NCBI GenBank assembly: GCA_902540265.1
Contig: CACBLW010000004.1
Coordinates: 12,901-76,900 of the forward strand
Source: an uncultured Alphaproteobacteria bacterium
Lineage (GTDB): Bacteria; Pseudomonadota; Alphaproteobacteria; HIMB59; GCA-002718135
Direction: 5' to 3'
DNA length: 64,000 nucleotides
Position numbers and translations under genes: made by a program. The first letter of the stretch is position 1, and each line of letters starts with the position of its first letter. Under the pieces are notes generated by a model that was given only the letters and a program-made list of their open reading frames with translations, was not told where the DNA came from and ran no database searches. This document shows, piece by piece, positions 14,382-59,874 of the stretch.

Positions 14382-14664
14382 AAAATTAATTAAATTAAAG
14401 ACAATAAAATCTTTATAGTAAATCTCGTTTACTAATACAATAACGATGATTGCCGCATAGAAAACATACTTAGCTTTATGTCATATAATTCATTTCACTA
14501 TACTAGGTTTTCATTTTCATCTTGATTTAAAATTGCAAATATAGCTAATAGTTTCCCAATAAGTGTATAAAATTTGTACCTTTAATTTTTATTATTTTTG
14601 TAATTTAAACATTTTTATTCCCATTATTTCTTGTTTTTTCTAATACTTTCCTTATAAGCGGGGA

Positions 14665-20146: not shown

Positions 20147-20350
20147 ATGCCAAGTGGTAAAATTAAATGGTTTAATCCGACCAAAGGTTATGGATTTATA
20201 GAAAATGATGATGGAGGAAAAGATGTTTTTCTTCATGTCTCAGCTCTAGAAGCTGCTGGTATCGATACTTTAGAAGAAGGTATGCCAGTTGAATTTGAAA
20301 TCGGTGAAAACCGTGGAAAAGAAAACGCTATTAATATTAAGAAAAAATAA
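20147..20350 (+). CDS. cspA: cold-shock domain protein
   Basis: 67 aa with the RNP-1-like KGYGFI and RNP-2-like VFLHVS motifs. An AAGGAG Shine-Dalgarno precedes it, and the 126-nt upstream spacer is consistent with a csp leader. Confidence 0.9.
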
Positions 20351-21561: not shown

Positions 21562-22529
21562 TACCTAAAGATTTATCTATCGATAATATTAGTAAAATTT
21601 ATAAAAAAATTAGACCATTTATTAATCAAACTCCTTTTTTAAAGTGTTCTGATGATATTGATAATTATTTTTCTACTAATTTATTTTTTAAATGCGAATT
21701 TTTACAGAAATCTGGTTCTTTTAAGGCAAGAGGTGCTATTAATAATATAATTTCTCAAGATCAGAATAAATTTAACAAAGGAATTACAGCAGTTAGTGCT
21801 GGAAATCATGCAATCGCTGCTTCATTTGTGGCCAATCAATTTAAATTGAAAAATAAAATTTTCCTATACGAAAGTGCGAATGAATATAGAGTTCAAACTT
21901 GTAAAAATTATGGTGCTAACATTATCTTTACAAATCCAAAACAAGCTTTTCTTGATGCTGAAAATGCTAAAAATGAAGGTTACTACTTTATTCACCCTTT
22001 TGACGGGCCATTGACATTACAAGGTAGTGCTACCTTGGGATTAGAAATTGTTGAATATTTAAAATCAATTAATACTAAAATTGATAATTTATTAATTTCA
22101 GTTGGAGGAGGGGGATTGATAAGTGGTGTTTCATCGTATGTAAAACAATTTTATCCGAAGATTAAAATTATTGGTGTTGAACCTGAAAATGCTAATGGTT
22201 TAAATCAAAGTTTTAGAGCTAAAAAACCACTAAATAATATTAATGTAAATAGTATTGCTGATAGCCTTTCAGCACCTTTACATATGCAATATTCTTTTGA
22301 TGTAGCAAAAGAAGTAATTGATGAAATGGTAACCGTATCTGATGATCAAATGAAAAAATTTATGGTTTTTTGTTATAAAAAATTTAAGTTATTTCTTGAA
22401 CCCGCATGTGTTGCTGGACTTGCTGCTTTAAAATATAAAATCAATAATAAGCTTATTGGCAAAAATACAATGGTAATATTGTGTGGCTCAAATATTGATA
22501 AAAAAACTTGGTCAAATTTAACTAATTAA
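21558..22529 (+). CDS. PLP-dependent threonine/serine dehydratase (fold-type II)
   Basis: 323 aa with a TTG start, the SGSFKARGA lysine motif, and the VGGGGLISG glycine loop. There is no ACT regulatory domain. Confidence 0.75.
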   Translation: MIPKDLSIDNISKIYKKIRPFINQTPFLKCSDDIDNYFSTNLFFKCEFLQKSGSFKARGAINNIISQDQNKFNKGITAVSAGNHAIAASFVANQFKLKNKIFLYESANEYRVQTCKNYGANIIFTNPKQAFLDAENAKNEGYYFIHPFDGPLTLQGSATLGLEIVEYLKSINTKIDNLLISVGGGGLISGVSSYVKQFYPKIKIIGVEPENANGLNQSFRAKKPLNNINVNSIADSLSAPLHMQYSFDVAKEVIDEMVTVSDDQMKKFMVFCYKKFKLFLEPACVAGLAALKYKINNKLIGKNTMVILCGSNIDKKTWSNLTN

Positions 22530-23632
22530 TAAGGAAAATATAAAATACCACCACTTAAATTTTTTTTCACACCTGTAGTGTTTTTATTACTTATTTCTAA
22601 ATTTTTAAATGATCTCATGCCAATATACGCAAACATTTGAGCCTCTACTAAATCACCATTTATTTTATATTTATCAATAAGTTCAATTTTTTTATTCAGT
22701 TTATTCATTAATATTTCTTTGAGTAATTTATTTTTTCTTCCTCCTCCAGTAAGTAAAATTTTTTCAATCTTAAATTTTTTATTTTTTAATAATTCTTTAA
22801 ATCCAATATAAGTCATGTAGTTAGCTGTCATTAGTGCATCATATTTGTTCAATTGAATTAACTTATTAAAATAATTTCTAAAATAATTTCTATCTAATGA
22901 TTTTGGAAACTTTTTCTTAAAGAATTTATCTTTTTTGAATTTTTCAATTAATTTATTATCAATCTTACCTTTTCTTGCATATTTTCCATCATTATCAAAT
23001 TTTTTTTTAAAAAAATAATTGCAAAGATCATCACTTAAGCAATTTGCAGGCCCTATGTCTGATGATAATAATGTTCTTGAAATTACAGTTGAAAAATTTG
23101 CTATACCTCCAAGATTTACTATAATCACTTTTTCTTTAAATTTTTGTATTAAAAACTTATGATAATATGATCCTATAGGTGCTCCCTGTCCACCATTTTT
23201 AATATCATTATCTCTTAAATTACTTATAGTTTTAATTTTAAGATTTTTTGCAATTTTTTTTCCATTACCTAATTGTATAGAGATTTTATTTGATGGGTCG
23301 TGGTAAACAGTCTGTCCACTAATTGATATTAAATCGATATTTTTTTTATTAATTTTTTTTTGTTTCAAAAACAAAATTATTTTTTTTTCTAAAATATCTG
23401 TAACAAAATCATCTTCTTTTAAAAAATATTCTTTAATTTTATTATTAGTTTTTGGTTTATTTAATATTAGATTGTTTATTGTATTTTGATAATTTTTATC
23501 AAATTTATAAGATTTCTCACATTTAATTTTTACAAAATCAGTCCCATTTGTTTTAATCAAACTGATATCAACGCCATCCATTGATGTGCCTGTCATAACT
23601 CCTAAGACATTAAGTTTTGAATTTTTACTCAT
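22526..23632 (-). CDS. anmK: anhydro-N-acetylmuramic acid kinase
   Basis: 368 aa with the N-terminal GVMTGTSMDGVD signature of AnmK. Its 3' end overlaps the dehydratase 3' end by 4 nt. Confidence 0.82.
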   Translation of the reverse strand: MSKNSKLNVLGVMTGTSMDGVDISLIKTNGTDFVKIKCEKSYKFDKNYQNTINNLILNKPKTNNKIKEYFLKEDDFVTDILEKKIILFLKQKKINKKNIDLISISGQTVYHDPSNKISIQLGNGKKIAKNLKIKTISNLRDNDIKNGGQGAPIGSYYHKFLIQKFKEKVIIVNLGGIANFSTVISRTLLSSDIGPANCLSDDLCNYFFKKKFDNDGKYARKGKIDNKLIEKFKKDKFFKKKFPKSLDRNYFRNYFNKLIQLNKYDALMTANYMTYIGFKELLKNKKFKIEKILLTGGGRKNKLLKEILMNKLNKKIELIDKYKINGDLVEAQMFAYIGMRSFKNLEISNKNTTGVKKNLSGGILYFPY

Positions 23633-23753
23633 TTTTAATCAAATTTAATTTTGCACATTTTACTAACAAACATATCAACATAAAAAGATTAATTAGTTTT
23701 AAAAATACATTTTTTTATTGATTGATAAATAACAAACAGATAAATTAATTTTA

Positions 23754-23868
23754 ATTATTACACGCAAAGGTAATAATCAATTTAATAAAAGGAAACGATT
23801 ATTAAATTGTATCGGGAGGAAATGCACGATACACGAAAAGGACCTAGCTTGCTGGGTCCTTTTTTTTT
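23754..23868 (+). ncRNA. candidate structured leader / small RNA (alternative hairpins + hairpin + intrinsic terminator)
   Basis: ATTATTA (23754-23760), TAATAATC (23771-23778) and GATTATTA (23797-23804) can form mutually exclusive hairpins. A GTATCG/CGATAC hairpin (23809-23832) and a terminator (23840-23868) follow. No ORF ends here. Confidence 0.5.
23836..23868 (+). terminator. Rho-independent terminator
   Basis: AAAA, then GGACCTAG-cttg-CTGGGTCC (8-bp stem including one G-U, tetraloop), then nine consecutive T (23860-23868). Confidence 0.75.
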
Positions 23869-23912
23869 GTTTTATGGACAAATCTAATAAATAAAGTATC
23901 AGACATTTCATA

Positions 23913-24485
23913 ATGATAACAAATTATGAAAGAATTTTAGATGTTATTTTAGATGATCTTATACCATTAACAAAAATTTCAATAAACGAGGGAAATAAAA
24001 TATTTGGCGGATTTATTGTTAAAAAATCTGACCTAAGTCTTATTTGTCTAGGTATAAACCAGGAAATCAAAAATCCTTTATTTCATGGAGAAATATCAAC
24101 TCTTTTCAATTTATTTGAAAAAAAACTTTTTAATACAAAAGATTATTACTTCATAAGTACCCATCAGCCTTGTTCTATGTGTTTATCAGCCATAACTTGG
24201 GCTGGATTTGACAATTTTTACTATTTTTTTTCCTATACCGACACAAAAGATGGTTTTCATATTCCGCACGATCTTAAAATTTTGACGGAGGTTTTTAAGA
24301 TTAAAGATGGTAATTACAATATTAATAATGATTACTGGGAAAGTTACTCAATTTTATCGGAAATTAAAAGATTGGGCATAGAGGACTCATTATCAGATAA
24401 AATTTATCAGATTAAAGAAGAGTATCAAAAAATGTCAGAAATTTATCAAAAATCAAAAATTGATAATAAAATTCCTCTAAATTAA
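23913..24485 (+). CDS. CDA-fold zinc deaminase (guanine/nucleoside deaminase-like)
   Basis: 190 aa with the H-x-E motif (FHGEIS) and the PCxxC motif (HQPCSMCLSAITWAG) of cytidine/deoxycytidylate/guanine deaminase-fold enzymes. Confidence 0.7.
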   Translation: MITNYERILDVILDDLIPLTKISINEGNKIFGGFIVKKSDLSLICLGINQEIKNPLFHGEISTLFNLFEKKLFNTKDYYFISTHQPCSMCLSAITWAGFDNFYYFFSYTDTKDGFHIPHDLKILTEVFKIKDGNYNINNDYWESYSILSEIKRLGIEDSLSDKIYQIKEEYQKMSEIYQKSKIDNKIPLN

Positions 24486-24517
24486 TTGTTAAATAATAAA
24501 AATAAGTGTACAAATAA

Positions 24518-24662
24518 TTAACGGGAGATACTGAAATTTCAGAGCCGAAGGAGCAACGACCCGGAAACTCTCAGGCACAATGGACCGTTAAAAAAAAACT
24601 CTGGAAAAGAGCATTTAGCTCTACCGAAGGTGAAAAGCTCTCAGGTAAAAAGACAGAGGGGT
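24518..24662 (+). promoter_or_regulatory. tandem glycine riboswitch
   Basis: Aptamer 1 (24518-24591) reads ACGGGAGA ... GCCGAAGGAGCAA ... CUCUCAGGCA ... GGACCGU. Aptamer 2 (24599-24660) reads CUCUGGAAAAG ... ACCGAAGGUGAAA ... CUCAGGUAAAAAGACAGAGG. It lies directly upstream of gcvT. Confidence 0.9.
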
Positions 24663-24678: not shown

Positions 24679-25803
24679 TTGAACCAGTTACCAATAGACA
24701 TTCCGCTGAAAAATTTTCATCAAAATAATGGTGCAAAGATATTGCCATTTGCAGGTTTTAATATGCCTATTAATTATAAAACTGGAATAATTAATGAACA
24801 CAAAAATGTTAGAAATCACTCCGGTATTTTTGATGTTAGCCATATGGGGCAAATTTTAATTGAAAATAATGAATCTTATTTACATAAATTAGAAAAATAT
24901 ATTCCATTACAATTAAAAAAATTAATTAAAAATAGATCGCATTATTCATTTTTACTCAATAAAGATGGCGGTGTTATCGATGATCTAATTATTTCAAATA
25001 TTGATATTAAAGATAAGTCATATTTATATATTGTTTATAATGCATCTCGAAAAAAAGAAGACGAAGAAATATTTATTTCTTGCGCTCCTAATGCAGAAAA
25101 AATTTATAAAAAAAATTGTTTATTCGCAATCCAAGGGCCTGATTCTATTAATGTTTTAAAAAATATTATTGATATTCCAAATAATATGAAATTTTTTGAT
25201 ATTTTAATAAGTAAATACGATAACAATGAAATAATAGTAAGTAGATCAGGTTATACTGGTGAAGATGGCTTTGAACTTTCTATTCCAAATGAAAGTGCAG
25301 AAAATTTAATTACTCATTTACTTAAAAATGAAAATACAATGCTTTGTGGGTTAGGTTCTAGGGATTCATTAAGACTCGAAGCTGGATTAAGTTTATATGG
25401 TCATGAATTAAATGAAAAAATTACACCAATTGAAGCTGGTTTATCATGGGCTTTAGACAAAGAAAGATTAGAAGATGAAAATTTAAATGGAAATGAAGTT
25501 TTATCCGATCAATTAAAAAATACACTATCTAATAAAAAAATAGGTTTAATTTCTACTAGTAAATCAATGCTAAGAGATGGAATGACATTATTCGATAATA
25601 ATAAAAATGAAATTGGCAAAATTACAAGTGGATGTTTTTCTCCCAATCTAAACAAATCTATTGCTATTGGTTATATAATATCTGAATTCAATACTGGTAA
25701 TCCAATTTTTTGTGAAATTAGAAAAAAATTAGAATTAGTAAAAATTAATAATCTACCTTTTGTAAAAAAAAATTATAAAAAAAATGGGAGCATATATGAG
25801 TGA
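24679..25803 (+). CDS. gcvT: glycine cleavage system aminomethyltransferase (T protein)
   Basis: 374 aa in the GcvT family (GIFDVSHMGQ, YTGEDGFELS). It has a TTG start preceded by a GGAG SD at 24668-24671. Confidence 0.9.
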   Translation: MNQLPIDIPLKNFHQNNGAKILPFAGFNMPINYKTGIINEHKNVRNHSGIFDVSHMGQILIENNESYLHKLEKYIPLQLKKLIKNRSHYSFLLNKDGGVIDDLIISNIDIKDKSYLYIVYNASRKKEDEEIFISCAPNAEKIYKKNCLFAIQGPDSINVLKNIIDIPNNMKFFDILISKYDNNEIIVSRSGYTGEDGFELSIPNESAENLITHLLKNENTMLCGLGSRDSLRLEAGLSLYGHELNEKITPIEAGLSWALDKERLEDENLNGNEVLSDQLKNTLSNKKIGLISTSKSMLRDGMTLFDNNKNEIGKITSGCFSPNLNKSIAIGYIISEFNTGNPIFCEIRKKLELVKINNLPFVKKNYKKNGSIYE

Positions 25804-59636: not shown

Positions 59637-59807
59637 ATGGATAAATTAGTTCCAATTATATACATGATTGGAGTTCTTTTGTTAGTGCTTCCTTCTTTTT
59701 TAAGTTCTAATAGTAGTTTAAAAACTTTTTTTACAAACTTGTCTATTTGGATAGCAATTATATTAGTAGTTTTAACTTTTTACTTTGCCTATCATTATTT
59801 TATTTGA
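59637..59807 (+). CDS. small two-TM membrane protein (56 aa), not in the ORF track
   Basis: My own translation is MDKLVPIIYMIGVLLLVLPSFLSSNSSLKTFFTNLSIWIAIILVVLTFYFAYHYFI. The ATG immediately follows the stop of the upstream gene (TAAATG). It has two hydrophobic helices. Confidence 0.4.
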   Translation: MDKLVPIIYMIGVLLLVLPSFLSSNSSLKTFFTNLSIWIAIILVVLTFYFAYHYFI

Positions 59808-59874
59808 ATCATTAAAGATATTTAACTGAATTAAATGTAGACTAAACTCTAACAAATATCTATACGAGAATTTC

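What the first reader, a model, noticed from the sequence alone, without database searches (positions are those of the whole stretch)
23718..23868. Orphan structured RNA with alternative hairpins and the only clean intrinsic terminator seen in the window, upstream of a CDA-fold deaminase
Seen: the 280-nt gap between anmK (minus strand, start codon at 23630-23632) and the deaminase ORF (ATG at 23913) is among the longest non-coding stretches here. It contains four elements.
- A sigma70-like TTGATT-17 nt-TAAATT (23718-23746).
- Three mutually complementary elements: ATTATTA (23754-23760), TAATAATC (23771-23778) and GATTATTA (23797-23804). The middle one can pair either upstream (10-nt loop CACGCAAAGG) or downstream (18-nt loop), giving mutually exclusive hairpins.
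- A GTATCG/CGATAC hairpin (23809-23814 with 23827-23832) that displays a purine-rich loop, GGAGGAAATGCA.
- A textbook terminator, GGACCTAG-cttg-CTGGGTCC (23840-23859), followed by nine T.

No plus-strand ORF ends here. The previous plus-strand gene ends at 22529, and a minus-strand gene lies in between. I saw no comparable GC-rich hairpin plus T-run after any gene in the window, and convergent genes simply overlap.

Inference: this is either a ~115-nt stand-alone sRNA or a transcription-attenuating riboswitch/leader controlling the deaminase 45 nt downstream. A purine or pyrimidine metabolite ligand would be plausible. I could not match it to any riboswitch class I know.
Basis: partly seen in the sequence, partly recalled or inferred. 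Interest (0 to 1): 0.65.

Follow-up and report, generated by a model that had tools for sequence, protein, structure and literature searches.

The report
Known marine small RNA: IMES-4
The structured element is a canonical copy of IMES-4, a small RNA already catalogued from ocean metagenomes, encoded here as its own tiny gene in a SAR11-type (Pelagibacterales) genome; it is real and strongly conserved, it is not a new class or a riboswitch, and its function is still unknown.

Summary
Rfam assigns 23754-23833(+) to RF02037, the IMES-4 RNA motif, at 101.7 bits (gathering score 48) over the full model. The fold is three consecutive hairpins, P1, P2 and P3, followed by the terminator hairpin. It is not a pair of mutually exclusive hairpins.

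I collected about 190 homologues from Pelagibacterales single-cell genomes, MAGs and marine metagenomes. In them, 97.7% of cells are paired and 27 of 39 base pairs show compensatory changes.

A sigma70-type promoter sits at a fixed distance, so transcription should start at P1. The terminator is the only strong one in the 64 kb. Nothing can pair with its 5' arm, so there is no antiterminator.

The locus is syntenic across the order: anmK, IMES-4, deaminase, glycine riboswitch, gcvT. In several lineages the next gene is convergent, different or missing, yet the RNA is unchanged. It is therefore a stand-alone RNA of about 110 nt, not a leader.

The loops ACGCAAAG, GAAA and GGGAGGAAAUG are essentially invariant. 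The most likely mode of action is in trans through these loops. That is inferred, not shown.

Verdict: real, already known, function open.

The parts
23710..23715 (+). T-rich tract just upstream of the -35 hexamer (UP-element-like)
   Evidence: Positions -44 to -39 relative to P1 are T in 75-88% of 148 distinct upstream sequences. A functional role is inferred.
23718..23723 (+). -35 hexamer TTGATT of the IMES-4 promoter
   Evidence: The position is conserved. At -36 to -32, T, T, G, A, T occur at 0.88, 0.91, 0.70, 0.57 and 0.78 in 148 distinct sequences, while the 17-nt spacer diverges.
23741..23746 (+). -10 hexamer TAAATT of the IMES-4 promoter
   Evidence: At -13 to -8, the consensus TAAATT occurs at 0.82, 0.83, 0.63, 0.68, 0.76 and 0.91. 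The spacing to the -35 hexamer is 17 nt.
23753..23753 (+). Predicted transcription start (A), 7 nt after the -10 hexamer and 1 nt before P1
   Evidence: A at -1 is conserved in 92% of sequences. The start site is inferred from promoter geometry and has not been measured.
23754..23777 (+). P1 hairpin: 8 bp (23754-23761 with 23770-23777), loop L1 ACGCAAAG (23762-23769)
   Evidence: Matches Rfam IMES-4 model positions 1-24. Five of 8 pairs show compensatory changes and 98.5% of cells are paired. L1 is identical in 31 of 32 sequences that were not selected on it.
23779..23808 (+). P2 hairpin: 13 bp (23779-23791 with 23796-23808), capped by a GAAA tetraloop (23792-23795) closed by G-C. In this lineage two A.A/A.G mismatches lie under the loop.
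   Evidence: Twelve of 13 pairs show compensatory changes. In L069 the closing G-C pair is replaced by A-U while the GAAA loop is kept.
23809..23832 (+). P3 hairpin: 6 bp (23809-23814 with 23827-23832), 12-nt loop L3 GGAGGAAATGCA (23815-23826). Together with the closing G, the invariant core is GGGAGGAAAUG.
   Evidence: In metagenome hits not selected on P3 or L3, 4 of 6 pairs covary. Among the 77 distinct sequences printed, all have GGGAGGAAA and all but one (L118) have GGGAGGAAAUG. The loop is predicted to be unpaired.
23833..23835 (+). Start of the A-rich linker between P3 and the terminator. The linker continues into the A-U base of the terminator stem.
   Evidence: The linker is A-rich in all lineages (ACAAAAGG, AUAAAAAAG and similar).
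23836..23868 (+). P4, an intrinsic terminator: stem 23836-23847 with 23852-23863, CUUG tetraloop 23848-23851, T9 run 23860-23868
   Evidence: Best terminator in the tool scan and the only one in 64 kb under stricter rules. Hairpin energy is -17.6 kcal/mol. Cells are 99.8-100% paired, with 5-6 compensatory pairs at the base of the stem. The top of the stem, CCUAG-CUUG-CUGGG, is almost invariant in sequences not selected on it.
23913..24485 (+). Neighbouring gene only, not part of the RNA: CDA-fold deaminase of unknown substrate
   Evidence: Pfam dCMP_cyt_deam_1, E = 2e-10. No NCBIfam match. Distant match to nucleoside, cytosine and guanine deaminases in the PDB.

Best explanation
Window 23753 to about 23866 (+) is the gene for IMES-4 (Rfam RF02037), a small non-coding RNA of about 110 nt in Pelagibacterales.

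**Transcription unit.** It is read from its own sigma70-type promoter (TTGATT, 17 nt, TAAATT). Transcription starts at the first base pair of P1 and ends at its own strong intrinsic terminator.

**Fold.** The RNA forms four hairpins in a row with almost no linkers:
- P1, with loop ACGCAAAG;
- P2, with a GAAA tetraloop;
- P3, with loop GGAGGAAAUGCA;
- the terminator hairpin, with a CUUG tetraloop and a U tail.

**Action.** It is not a leader for the deaminase. It acts in trans.

**Most likely mechanism (inferred, about 0.4-0.45 of my belief).** The invariant, exposed purine-rich loop of P3 (GGGAGGAAAUG) looks like a ribosome-binding site. I propose that it serves as a seed that base-pairs with a complementary pyrimidine-rich sequence (...CAUUUCCUCCC...) in one or more target RNAs. 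The other two loops would add further contacts or stabilise the fold.

**Shown:** family identity, structure, the boundaries of the transcription unit as inferred from sequence, and independence from the downstream gene.

**Inferred:** transcription itself, action in trans, and the base-pairing mode.
For: **Identity**
- cmscan gives 101.7 bits against a gathering score of 48, over model positions 1-80 of 80.
- Thirteen further copies in 12 divergent homologous loci score 72.6-103 bits.

**Structure**
- On 32 genome-derived sequences, 96.3% of cells are paired and 21 pairs are compensatory. On 76 metagenome-derived sequences the figures are 97.7% and 27 of 39.
- No shuffle out of 500 reached the observed values. 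Slid controls are only 36-51% paired.
- A tandem paralog in L071 keeps all three loops exactly while all four stems differ.

**Own promoter**
- The -35 and -10 hexamers and an A at -1 are conserved at fixed positions in 148 distinct upstream sequences, while the spacer diverges.

**Own terminator, with no switch**
- It is the only strong terminator in 64 kb.
- When the 3' arm is blocked, the 5' arm stays unpaired and the energy equals that of P1-P3 alone.

**Independence from the downstream gene**
- In L045, L052 and L076 the next gene is a convergent minus-strand PBP_like_2 gene.
- In L018 and L036 it is an FKBP/rhodanese gene.
- In L071 the glycine riboswitch follows directly.
- In 13 metagenome contigs the deaminase lies about 850 nt away.

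**Copy number and location**
- One copy per genome locus, except L071.
- Absent from viral contigs.

**Loops as functional surfaces**
- Each loop is invariant in a sequence set that was not selected on it.
- The loops are predicted to be unpaired.
Against: - No transcript data could be examined, so the 5' and 3' ends and the expression level are inferred.
- No target was found. Complements of L3 occur in the window at the chance rate (6 found against 4.9 expected).
- Duplex energies of L1, L2 and L3 with 63 translation-initiation regions in the window are no better than those of shuffled seeds. The window covers only a few percent of a genome.
- Three different invariant loops, a GNRA tetraloop and near-zero linkers also fit a compact tertiary fold or a protein-binding RNA at least as naturally as a base-pairing sRNA.
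- IMES-4 sits next to the deaminase, glycine riboswitch and gcvT in most lineages, so a local functional link cannot be fully excluded.
- A separate promoter for the deaminase in the 44 nt after the terminator is not convincing. TGGACA, 16 nt, TATCAG is the best candidate, from my own reading.
Confidence: 0.85

Rival explanations
1. Protein-sequestering (decoy) RNA. The hairpin loops display GGA-type motifs: GGAAA in L2, and GGAGGAAA in L3 about 25 nt further on. These would bind and titrate an RNA-binding regulator, as CsrB, RsmY and RsmZ do with CsrA/RsmA, or they would bind another loop-specific protein.
For: - Two apical GGA-containing loops share the sequence GGAAA. They sit about 25 nt apart and are followed by a terminator hairpin.
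- The loops are invariant while the stems covary freely. This is typical of protein or tertiary recognition surfaces.
- Weinberg et al. 2009 reported high abundance of IMES RNAs in metatranscriptomes. This is from my memory, the paper was not readable here, and I am not sure of the figure for IMES-4 itself. High abundance would suit a titrating RNA.
Against: - There are only two or three GGA sites, against many in CsrB/Rsm RNAs.
- In L2 the GGA lies inside a closed GNRA tetraloop.
- The three loops have different sequences rather than being repeats of one motif.
That covers only this one locus, so it says little.
- As far as I recall, CsrA is rare in Alphaproteobacteria. I did not test this.
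Confidence: 0.25
2. Ribosome-binding-site mimic that engages the 30S subunit. The exposed GGGAGG of L3 would pair with the anti-Shine-Dalgarno end of 16S rRNA. An abundant IMES-4 would then tune the pool of free 30S subunits, or translation in general.
For: - L3 carries a perfect, unpaired GGAGG followed by AAAUG.
- In this window only 1 of 60 gene proxies has GGAGG at -20 to -4, and only 6 of 60 have any 4-nt SD core there. IMES-4 would therefore be one of the strongest anti-SD ligands in the cell.
Against: - This is pure inference from sequence.
- Pairing with the anti-SD does not explain why AAAUG, L1 and the GAAA loop are also conserved.
- The 2-nt spacing between SD and AUG is not compatible with initiation.
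- gcvT and other genes do carry GGAG-type SDs.
- Gene starts were taken from longest-ORF proxies, so the SD count is rough.
Confidence: 0.1
3. Cis-acting transcription attenuator or riboswitch controlling the downstream deaminase.
For: - The deaminase starts about 45-50 nt after the terminator, on the same strand, in most lineages.
- No convincing separate promoter can be seen in the 44-nt spacer of this window (my own reading).
Against: - The proposed alternative hairpin is not conserved.
- No antiterminator partner exists for the 5' arm of the terminator.
- The RNA, its promoter and its terminator are unchanged where the next gene is convergent (L045, L052, L076), different (L018, L036) or missing (L071).
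- The architecture is a row of hairpins with conserved apical loops. It is not a multi-helix junction with a conserved core.
- Rfam classes the family as 'Gene', not 'Cis-reg'.
Confidence: 0.04
4. Small-protein gene. Translation would start at the AUG inside L3 (23822), using GGAGG as its Shine-Dalgarno sequence.
For: GGAGGAAAUG looks like an SD followed by a start codon.
Against: - Only 2 nt separate the SD from the AUG.
- The frame hits a stop after 4 codons in many lineages (ACA-UAA or ACA-UGA in L004, L015, L021 and L023).
- The frame runs through the terminator into a T run whose length varies from 7 to 10.
- L118 lacks the AUG altogether.
Confidence: 0.01

Closest known systems
IMES-4 RNA motif (Rfam RF02037). 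As I recall, it was described from marine metagenomes and metatranscriptomes by Weinberg et al. 2009 (Nature 462:656) and overlaps the putative sRNAs of Shi et al. 2009 (Nature 459:266).
   Same: This is the same RNA.
- Full-length match at 101.7 bits.
- Same three hairpins and same conserved loops.
- Marine origin of all homologues.
- One hit (L094, AACY023733028.1) carries an AACY accession, which I recognise from memory as a Global Ocean Sampling contig.
   Different: There is no structural difference. This analysis adds the following, none of which I could check against the literature, so some of it may already be known.
- A host and locus: Pelagibacterales, between anmK or an EamA-family gene and the deaminase, glycine riboswitch and gcvT.
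- A positioned promoter.
- A conserved terminator hairpin that lies outside the 80-nt Rfam model.
- A tandem paralog in one single-cell genome.
CsrB / RsmY / RsmZ-type protein-sequestering sRNAs
   Same: - A stand-alone small RNA made of a row of hairpins.
- GGA motifs presented in apical loops.
- A Rho-independent terminator at the end.
   Different: - Only two or three GGA sites.
- The loops are not repeats of one motif, and one GGA is inside a GNRA tetraloop.
- No match to any Csr/Rsm family in Rfam.
- The presence of CsrA in the host was not established.
Trans-acting sRNAs that use conserved apical-loop seeds, such as RsaE/RoxS with C-rich loops or the alphaproteobacterial AbcR / alpha-r families with anti-SD loops
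   Same: - Own promoter and terminator.
- Covarying stems.
- Invariant unpaired loop sequences that could act as seeds.
   Different: - The polarity is reversed. The IMES-4 loop is purine-rich and SD-like (GGGAGGAAAUG) rather than pyrimidine-rich and anti-SD-like. Its partner would be a CU-rich sequence, not a ribosome-binding site.
- There is no sequence or model similarity.
Glycine riboswitch (RF00504 / RF03166), 640 nt downstream at 24509-24660
   Same: A structured RNA in the same conserved SAR11 locus. It is syntenic with IMES-4 in nearly all lineages.
   Different: - It is a separate element with a different fold. It is cis-acting on gcvT.
- IMES-4 shows no aptamer-like junction and no expression platform.

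Membership tests
IMES-4 RNA motif (Rfam RF02037) | Covariance-model score at or above the curated gathering score of 48 bits, over the full model | tested here: met
   101.7 bits, E about 1e-17, model positions 1-80 of 80, no truncation.
IMES-4 RNA motif (Rfam RF02037) | Three consecutive hairpins supported by covariation | tested here: met
   P1, P2 and P3 are 98.5%, 94.7% and 98.9% paired. Five of 8, 12 of 13 and 4 of 6 pairs show compensatory changes. No shuffle out of 500 did as well.
IMES-4 RNA motif (Rfam RF02037) | Conserved loop sequences of the consensus: CACGCAAAGG, GGAAAC, GGGAGGAAAUGcA | tested here: met
   The window matches every upper-case consensus position in the three loops. 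The only non-matching positions are the two mismatch pairs in P2. The loops are invariant in homologue sets not selected on them.
IMES-4 RNA motif (Rfam RF02037) | Occurrence in marine environmental sequences | tested here: met
A further 73 loci come from Pelagibacterales-type single-cell genomes and MAGs.
IMES-4 RNA motif (Rfam RF02037) | Abundant transcript in marine metatranscriptomes | not testable with these tools
   No read data were available. The original papers are not held. The one mdRNA-Seq supplement I found is cut off before the SAR11 table.
Transcription-attenuating riboswitch or leader | Conserved, mutually exclusive terminator and antiterminator pairings | tested here: not met
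The 5' arm of the terminator has no partner when the 3' arm is blocked.
Transcription-attenuating riboswitch or leader | Constant position upstream of, and on the same strand as, the regulated gene | tested here: not met
   The next gene is convergent in L045, L052 and L076 and different in L018 and L036. The deaminase is absent in L071, and 13 further contigs have the deaminase about 850 nt downstream.
Transcription-attenuating riboswitch or leader | Specific ligand binding by a conserved aptamer core | not testable with these tools
   This needs in-line probing or a similar assay. The architecture gives no hint of a junction-type pocket.
CsrB/Rsm-type CsrA-sequestering sRNA | Many GGA motifs in hairpin loops and single-stranded linkers | tested here: inconclusive
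   Two conserved loop GGA sites (L2 and L3). A third GGA at the base of the terminator is found only in this lineage. That is far fewer than in typical Csr/Rsm RNAs.
CsrB/Rsm-type CsrA-sequestering sRNA | A CsrA/RsmA protein encoded by the host | not testable with these tools
   tblastn with CsrA found nothing in the window plus 198 loci. These cover only this one locus.
CsrB/Rsm-type CsrA-sequestering sRNA | Match to a Csr/Rsm covariance model | tested here: not met
   No such family appears, even at E <= 1.

The most novel reading that the evidence does not exclude
IMES-4 is not a conventional base-pairing sRNA. It is a ribosome-binding-site mimic made by the ocean's most abundant bacteria. 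Their own mRNAs mostly lack Shine-Dalgarno sequences. The invariant, exposed GGGAGGAAAUG loop would capture the anti-SD end of 16S rRNA on free 30S subunits, or an RBS-recognising regulator. This would set global translation capacity: a ribosome-directed regulatory RNA in a genome otherwise almost devoid of regulators.
Probability: 0.1. Interest if true: 0.75.

Novelty: already known. Interest (0 to 1): 0.27.

Why it matters
The finding itself resolves into a catalogued RNA family, so it does not add a new class.

What remains of value is context. As far as I know, IMES-4 has no assigned function. No paper mentioning IMES-4 exists in the 8.3-million-paper library searched here.

This analysis ties IMES-4 to a fixed, single-copy locus across Pelagibacterales. 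It defines the likely transcript, with promoter, start site and terminator. It shows that IMES-4 is a free-standing gene. It also shows which nucleotides are truly constrained: three loops, with every stem free to covary.

SAR11 has very few protein regulators, so a universally conserved and reportedly abundant sRNA is a plausible major regulator in a globally important organism. The defined loops and boundaries make pull-down, probing and metatranscriptome re-analysis straightforward.

Tried and rejected
1. **Alternative-hairpin switch.** Counted on 32 homologues and not conserved.
2. **Antiterminator.** Truncated and constrained folds leave the 5' arm of the terminator unpaired.
3. **Small ORF from the AUG in L3.** Rejected because of early stops, a T run of variable length and one lineage with no AUG.
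4. **Target search.**
   - The complement of L3 occurs at the chance rate in the window.
   - Duplex energies of L1, L2 and L3 against 63 initiation regions are no better than shuffled seeds.
   - The deaminase 5' regions of different lineages share no complementary site (my reading).
5. **Shared TAGCTTG.** This 7-mer occurs in both the terminator loop and the gcvT leader of the window. It is not conserved in other lineages, so it is a coincidence.
6. **Terminator core as a repeated element.** It is unique in the window.
7. **Phage origin.** No hits in viral contigs.
8. **Neighbouring RNA-binding protein genes.** No Hfq, CsrA or ProQ. Only a syntenic csp gene about 3.6 kb upstream.
9. **Literature.**
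   - 'IMES-4' and variant spellings found no relevant paper.
   - The two original Nature papers are not held.
   - The Red Sea mdRNA-Seq paper maps SAR11 start sites, but its stored supplement is cut off before the SAR11 table.
   - Meyer et al. 2009 (PMC2704228) list a membrane-protein gene upstream of the gcvT riboswitch in HTCC1062. That points to a different local context in that strain.
10. **Source of the window.** The deaminase protein is not on record in the gene-position index.
11. **Other Rfam families.** Weak sub-threshold matches (PrrF, ncr1015, STnc RNAs) are driven by the terminator hairpin and are far below their gathering scores. Antisense hits of my own model are artefacts of the palindromic terminator.
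Full report
**1. The observation**

- The anmK start codon is at 23630-23632 on the minus strand (Pfam AnmK).
- The deaminase ATG is at 23913 (Pfam dCMP_cyt_deam_1), which leaves a 280-nt gap.
- TTGATT, 17 nt, TAAATT lies at 23718-23746.
- The AT-rich complementary segments, the GTATCG/CGATAC hairpin with loop GGAGGAAATGCA, and GGACCTAG-cttg-CTGGGTCC followed by nine T are all present.

The gap is the second longest between ORF proxies in a window whose median gap is 0.

The 124-nt stretch folds at -36 kcal/mol, against -17.3 +/- 3.05 for dinucleotide shuffles (z = -6.1).

The terminator is the best hit in the tool scan of 15-34 kb. In my stricter scan of both strands of all 64 kb it is the only hit. 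The exception is that the 'mutually exclusive hairpins' do not stand up; see section 3.

**2. What it is**

cmscan against Rfam 15 assigns 23754-23833(+) to RF02037, the IMES-4 RNA motif. The score is 101.7 bits against a gathering score of 48, with E about 1e-17, over model positions 1-80 of 80.

The consensus structure is three consecutive hairpins.
- P1: 23754-23761 with 23770-23777, loop ACGCAAAG.
- P2: 23779-23791 with 23796-23808, capped by a G-C-closed GAAA tetraloop.
- P3: 23809-23814 with 23827-23832, loop GGAGGAAAUGCA.

The terminator hairpin lies just outside the 80-nt model. The only other Rfam hit in the window is the tandem glycine riboswitch at 24509-24660, in front of gcvT.

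From my own knowledge, IMES-4 ('identified in marine environmental sequences') was described by Weinberg et al. 2009. It overlaps putative sRNAs of Shi et al. 2009. At that time it was known only from marine metagenomes and metatranscriptomes and had no function. I could not verify this here. Neither paper is held, and no paper in the searchable library mentions IMES-4.

**3. Homologues and structure test**

An exact-pattern scan of one genome per species, anchored on P3 and L3, gave 78 loci.
- 73 carry the whole element. They are single-cell genomes and MAGs titled Pelagibacterales, Pelagibacteraceae or 'uncultured Alphaproteobacteria AG-...', plus two MarineAlpha5 bins and one 'HIMB59-LRMED' MAG.
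- 5 are chance matches in unrelated GC-rich genomes. My covariance model does not recognise them.

A second scan, of metagenomes, was anchored on L1, L2 and the top of the terminator, and therefore did not select on P3 or L3. The record names that state a source say marine, apart from one sediment metagenome.

Counting the four-helix structure gave the following.
- On 32 distinct genome-derived sequences: 96.3% of cells paired and 21 pairs with compensatory changes.
- On 76 metagenome-derived sequences: 97.7% paired and 27 of 39 pairs compensatory.
- In both sets no shuffle out of 500 reached the observed values, and slid controls were only 36-51% paired.

P3, which was not constrained in the second set, covaries freely. 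Examples are GUAUCG/CGAUAC, AUAUCG/CGAUAU, AAAUCG/UGAUUU, GUAAG/CUUAC, GUUAG/CUAAC and AAAUAG/CUAUUU.

It is only 76.9% paired, with three of its eight pairs broken in 12-19 of 32 sequences. It results from AT-rich arms in this particular lineage and is not a conserved switch.

Rfam recognises all the divergent homologues I tested, at 72.6-103 bits.

**4. What is constrained**

Each loop was checked in a set that was not selected on it.
- L1 (ACGCAAAG) is identical in 31 of 32 sequences.
- The GAAA tetraloop is kept in all 32. In L069 the closing pair changes from G-C to A-U, a compensatory change.
- GGGAGGAAA is present in all 77 distinct metagenome sequences printed. GGGAGGAAAUG is present in all but one (L118), while the 3' part of the loop varies.
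- The top of the terminator, CCUAG-CUUG-CUGGG, is nearly invariant in the genome set.
- One single-cell genome (L071) has two IMES-4 genes in tandem. The upstream paralog keeps all three loops exactly, while all four stems differ, including a different terminator, GGCCUA-GCAA-UAGGUC.

The loops are therefore the functional surfaces. They are predicted to be unpaired.

**5. The transcription unit**

In 148 distinct upstream sequences, information content peaks at fixed positions relative to P1.
- TTGAT at -36 to -32.
- TAAATT at -13 to -8, giving a 17-nt spacer.
- An A at -1, in 92% of sequences.

Between these positions the sequence diverges. Transcription should therefore begin at 23753/23754, exactly where P1 starts.

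The terminator hairpin has an energy of -17.6 kcal/mol and is followed by 7-10 U in all lineages. In truncated or constrained folds its 5' arm has no alternative partner.

The predicted product is about 108-116 nt.

**6. Context**

tblastn with the window's proteins shows one conserved neighbourhood, down to about 46-60% protein identity: dnaJ-like gene, PALP enzyme, anmK (minus strand), sometimes an EamA-family gene, then IMES-4, deaminase, glycine riboswitch, gcvT, gcvH.

The pairing of IMES-4 with the deaminase is common but not obligatory.
- In L045, L052 and L076 the next gene is a convergent minus-strand PBP_like_2 gene.
- Thirteen metagenome contigs show the same spacing of about 850 nt. 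For these, the convergent gene is inferred from the spacing.
- In L018 and L036 an FKBP/rhodanese gene follows.
- In L071 the glycine riboswitch follows directly.

The RNA, its promoter and its terminator are unchanged in all of these. The element is single-copy, apart from L071 and a probably chimeric 1-kb contig, L180. It is absent from viral contigs. Together with section 5, this makes it a free-standing gene and not a leader.

**7. How it probably works**

Everything in this section is inferred. Nothing here or in the accessible literature shows function.

The anatomy is a promoter, a row of covarying hairpins with invariant apical loops, a terminator and a U tail. That is the anatomy of a trans-acting bacterial sRNA.

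I commit to action in trans through the loops. The most likely mode (about 0.4-0.45) is base pairing by the 11-nt purine-rich L3 seed to a CU-rich complement.

The rivals are:
- a protein decoy (0.25), because two loops share GGAAA and sit about 25 nt apart, as in Csr/Rsm RNAs;
- an RBS mimic that binds the anti-SD of 30S subunits (0.1), which is interesting because only 6 of 60 gene proxies here have any SD core;
- cis attenuation (0.04);
- a small ORF (0.01).

The GNRA tetraloop, the CUUG tetraloop and the near-zero linkers also suggest a compact fold.

The target searches possible here were negative and had little power. The deaminase is a divergent CDA-fold enzyme of unknown substrate, so it gives no clue to a ligand.

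**8. Comparison, novelty and verdict**

Membership in IMES-4 is met on every testable criterion. Riboswitch or attenuator membership fails on two tested criteria. Csr/Rsm membership is not supported.

The element is already known as a family. The added context may or may not already be recorded elsewhere: the host order, the fixed locus, the positioned promoter, the conserved terminator hairpin, the tandem paralog, and the map of which nucleotides are constrained.

Interest is low to moderate. The result is a clean identification of an orphan-function RNA in a globally important organism, not a discovery of a new class.

Noticed in passing
L071:1887-2007 and L071:2105-2224: One single-cell genome (AG-893-I03) has two IMES-4 genes in tandem, each with its own promoter-like sequence and terminator. 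The upstream paralog keeps the three loops exactly, but all its stems differ and it has a different terminator (GGCCUA-GCAA-UAGGUC). This locus has no deaminase.
   Followed up: partly
window 24509-24660 (+): A tandem glycine riboswitch (RF00504 at 61 bits; glycine-GGAnGA at 75.5 bits, below that family's gathering score) lies directly upstream of gcvT, which starts with TTG at 24679 behind a GGAG Shine-Dalgarno sequence. It is syntenic with IMES-4 in nearly all lineages.
   Followed up: partly
window, whole (60 ATG-ORF proxies): Shine-Dalgarno usage appears very low. Only 6 of 60 gene proxies have AGGA, GGAG or GAGG at -20 to -4, and only 1 has GGAGG. The window is 27.9% G+C and the median intergenic gap is 0. 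The start sites are rough because they come from longest-ORF calls.
   Followed up: partly
window 20153-20302 (+): A CspA-family cold-shock (RNA-binding) protein gene lies about 3.6 kb upstream of IMES-4. It is syntenic in most homologous loci. Csp proteins were proposed as post-transcriptional regulators in SAR11 (PMC2864753). No link to IMES-4 was tested.
   Followed up: no
window 14382-14664 and 59637-59874: These are the other two long gaps between ORF proxies (283 and 238 nt). Neither matches any Rfam family, even at E <= 0.1. I did not examine them further for structure or conservation.
   Followed up: partly
L180:168-288 (-) and L180:678-798 (+): A 1052-nt metagenome contig carries two near-identical IMES-4 copies in inverted orientation. 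This is most likely a chimeric or palindromic assembly artefact.
   Followed up: no
window 23913-24485 (+) and homologues: The 190-aa CDA-fold deaminase (HGE...PCSMC) has no NCBIfam match and only distant similarity to nucleoside, cytosine and guanine deaminases. Yet it is conserved at 53-98% identity next to the glycine-cleavage operon across Pelagibacterales. Its substrate is unknown.
   Followed up: partly
window 1-64000: No tRNA or tmRNA gene is found in the 64 kb (ARAGORN), and no rRNA. IMES-4 and the glycine riboswitch are the only Rfam-recognised RNAs.
   Followed up: yes
window 23875-23902 (+): A possible weak promoter for the deaminase lies downstream of the terminator: TGGACA, 16 nt, TATCAG. 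The GACAAATC part is conserved in moderately divergent lineages. It would give an almost leaderless mRNA. This comes from reading the sequence only.
   Followed up: no
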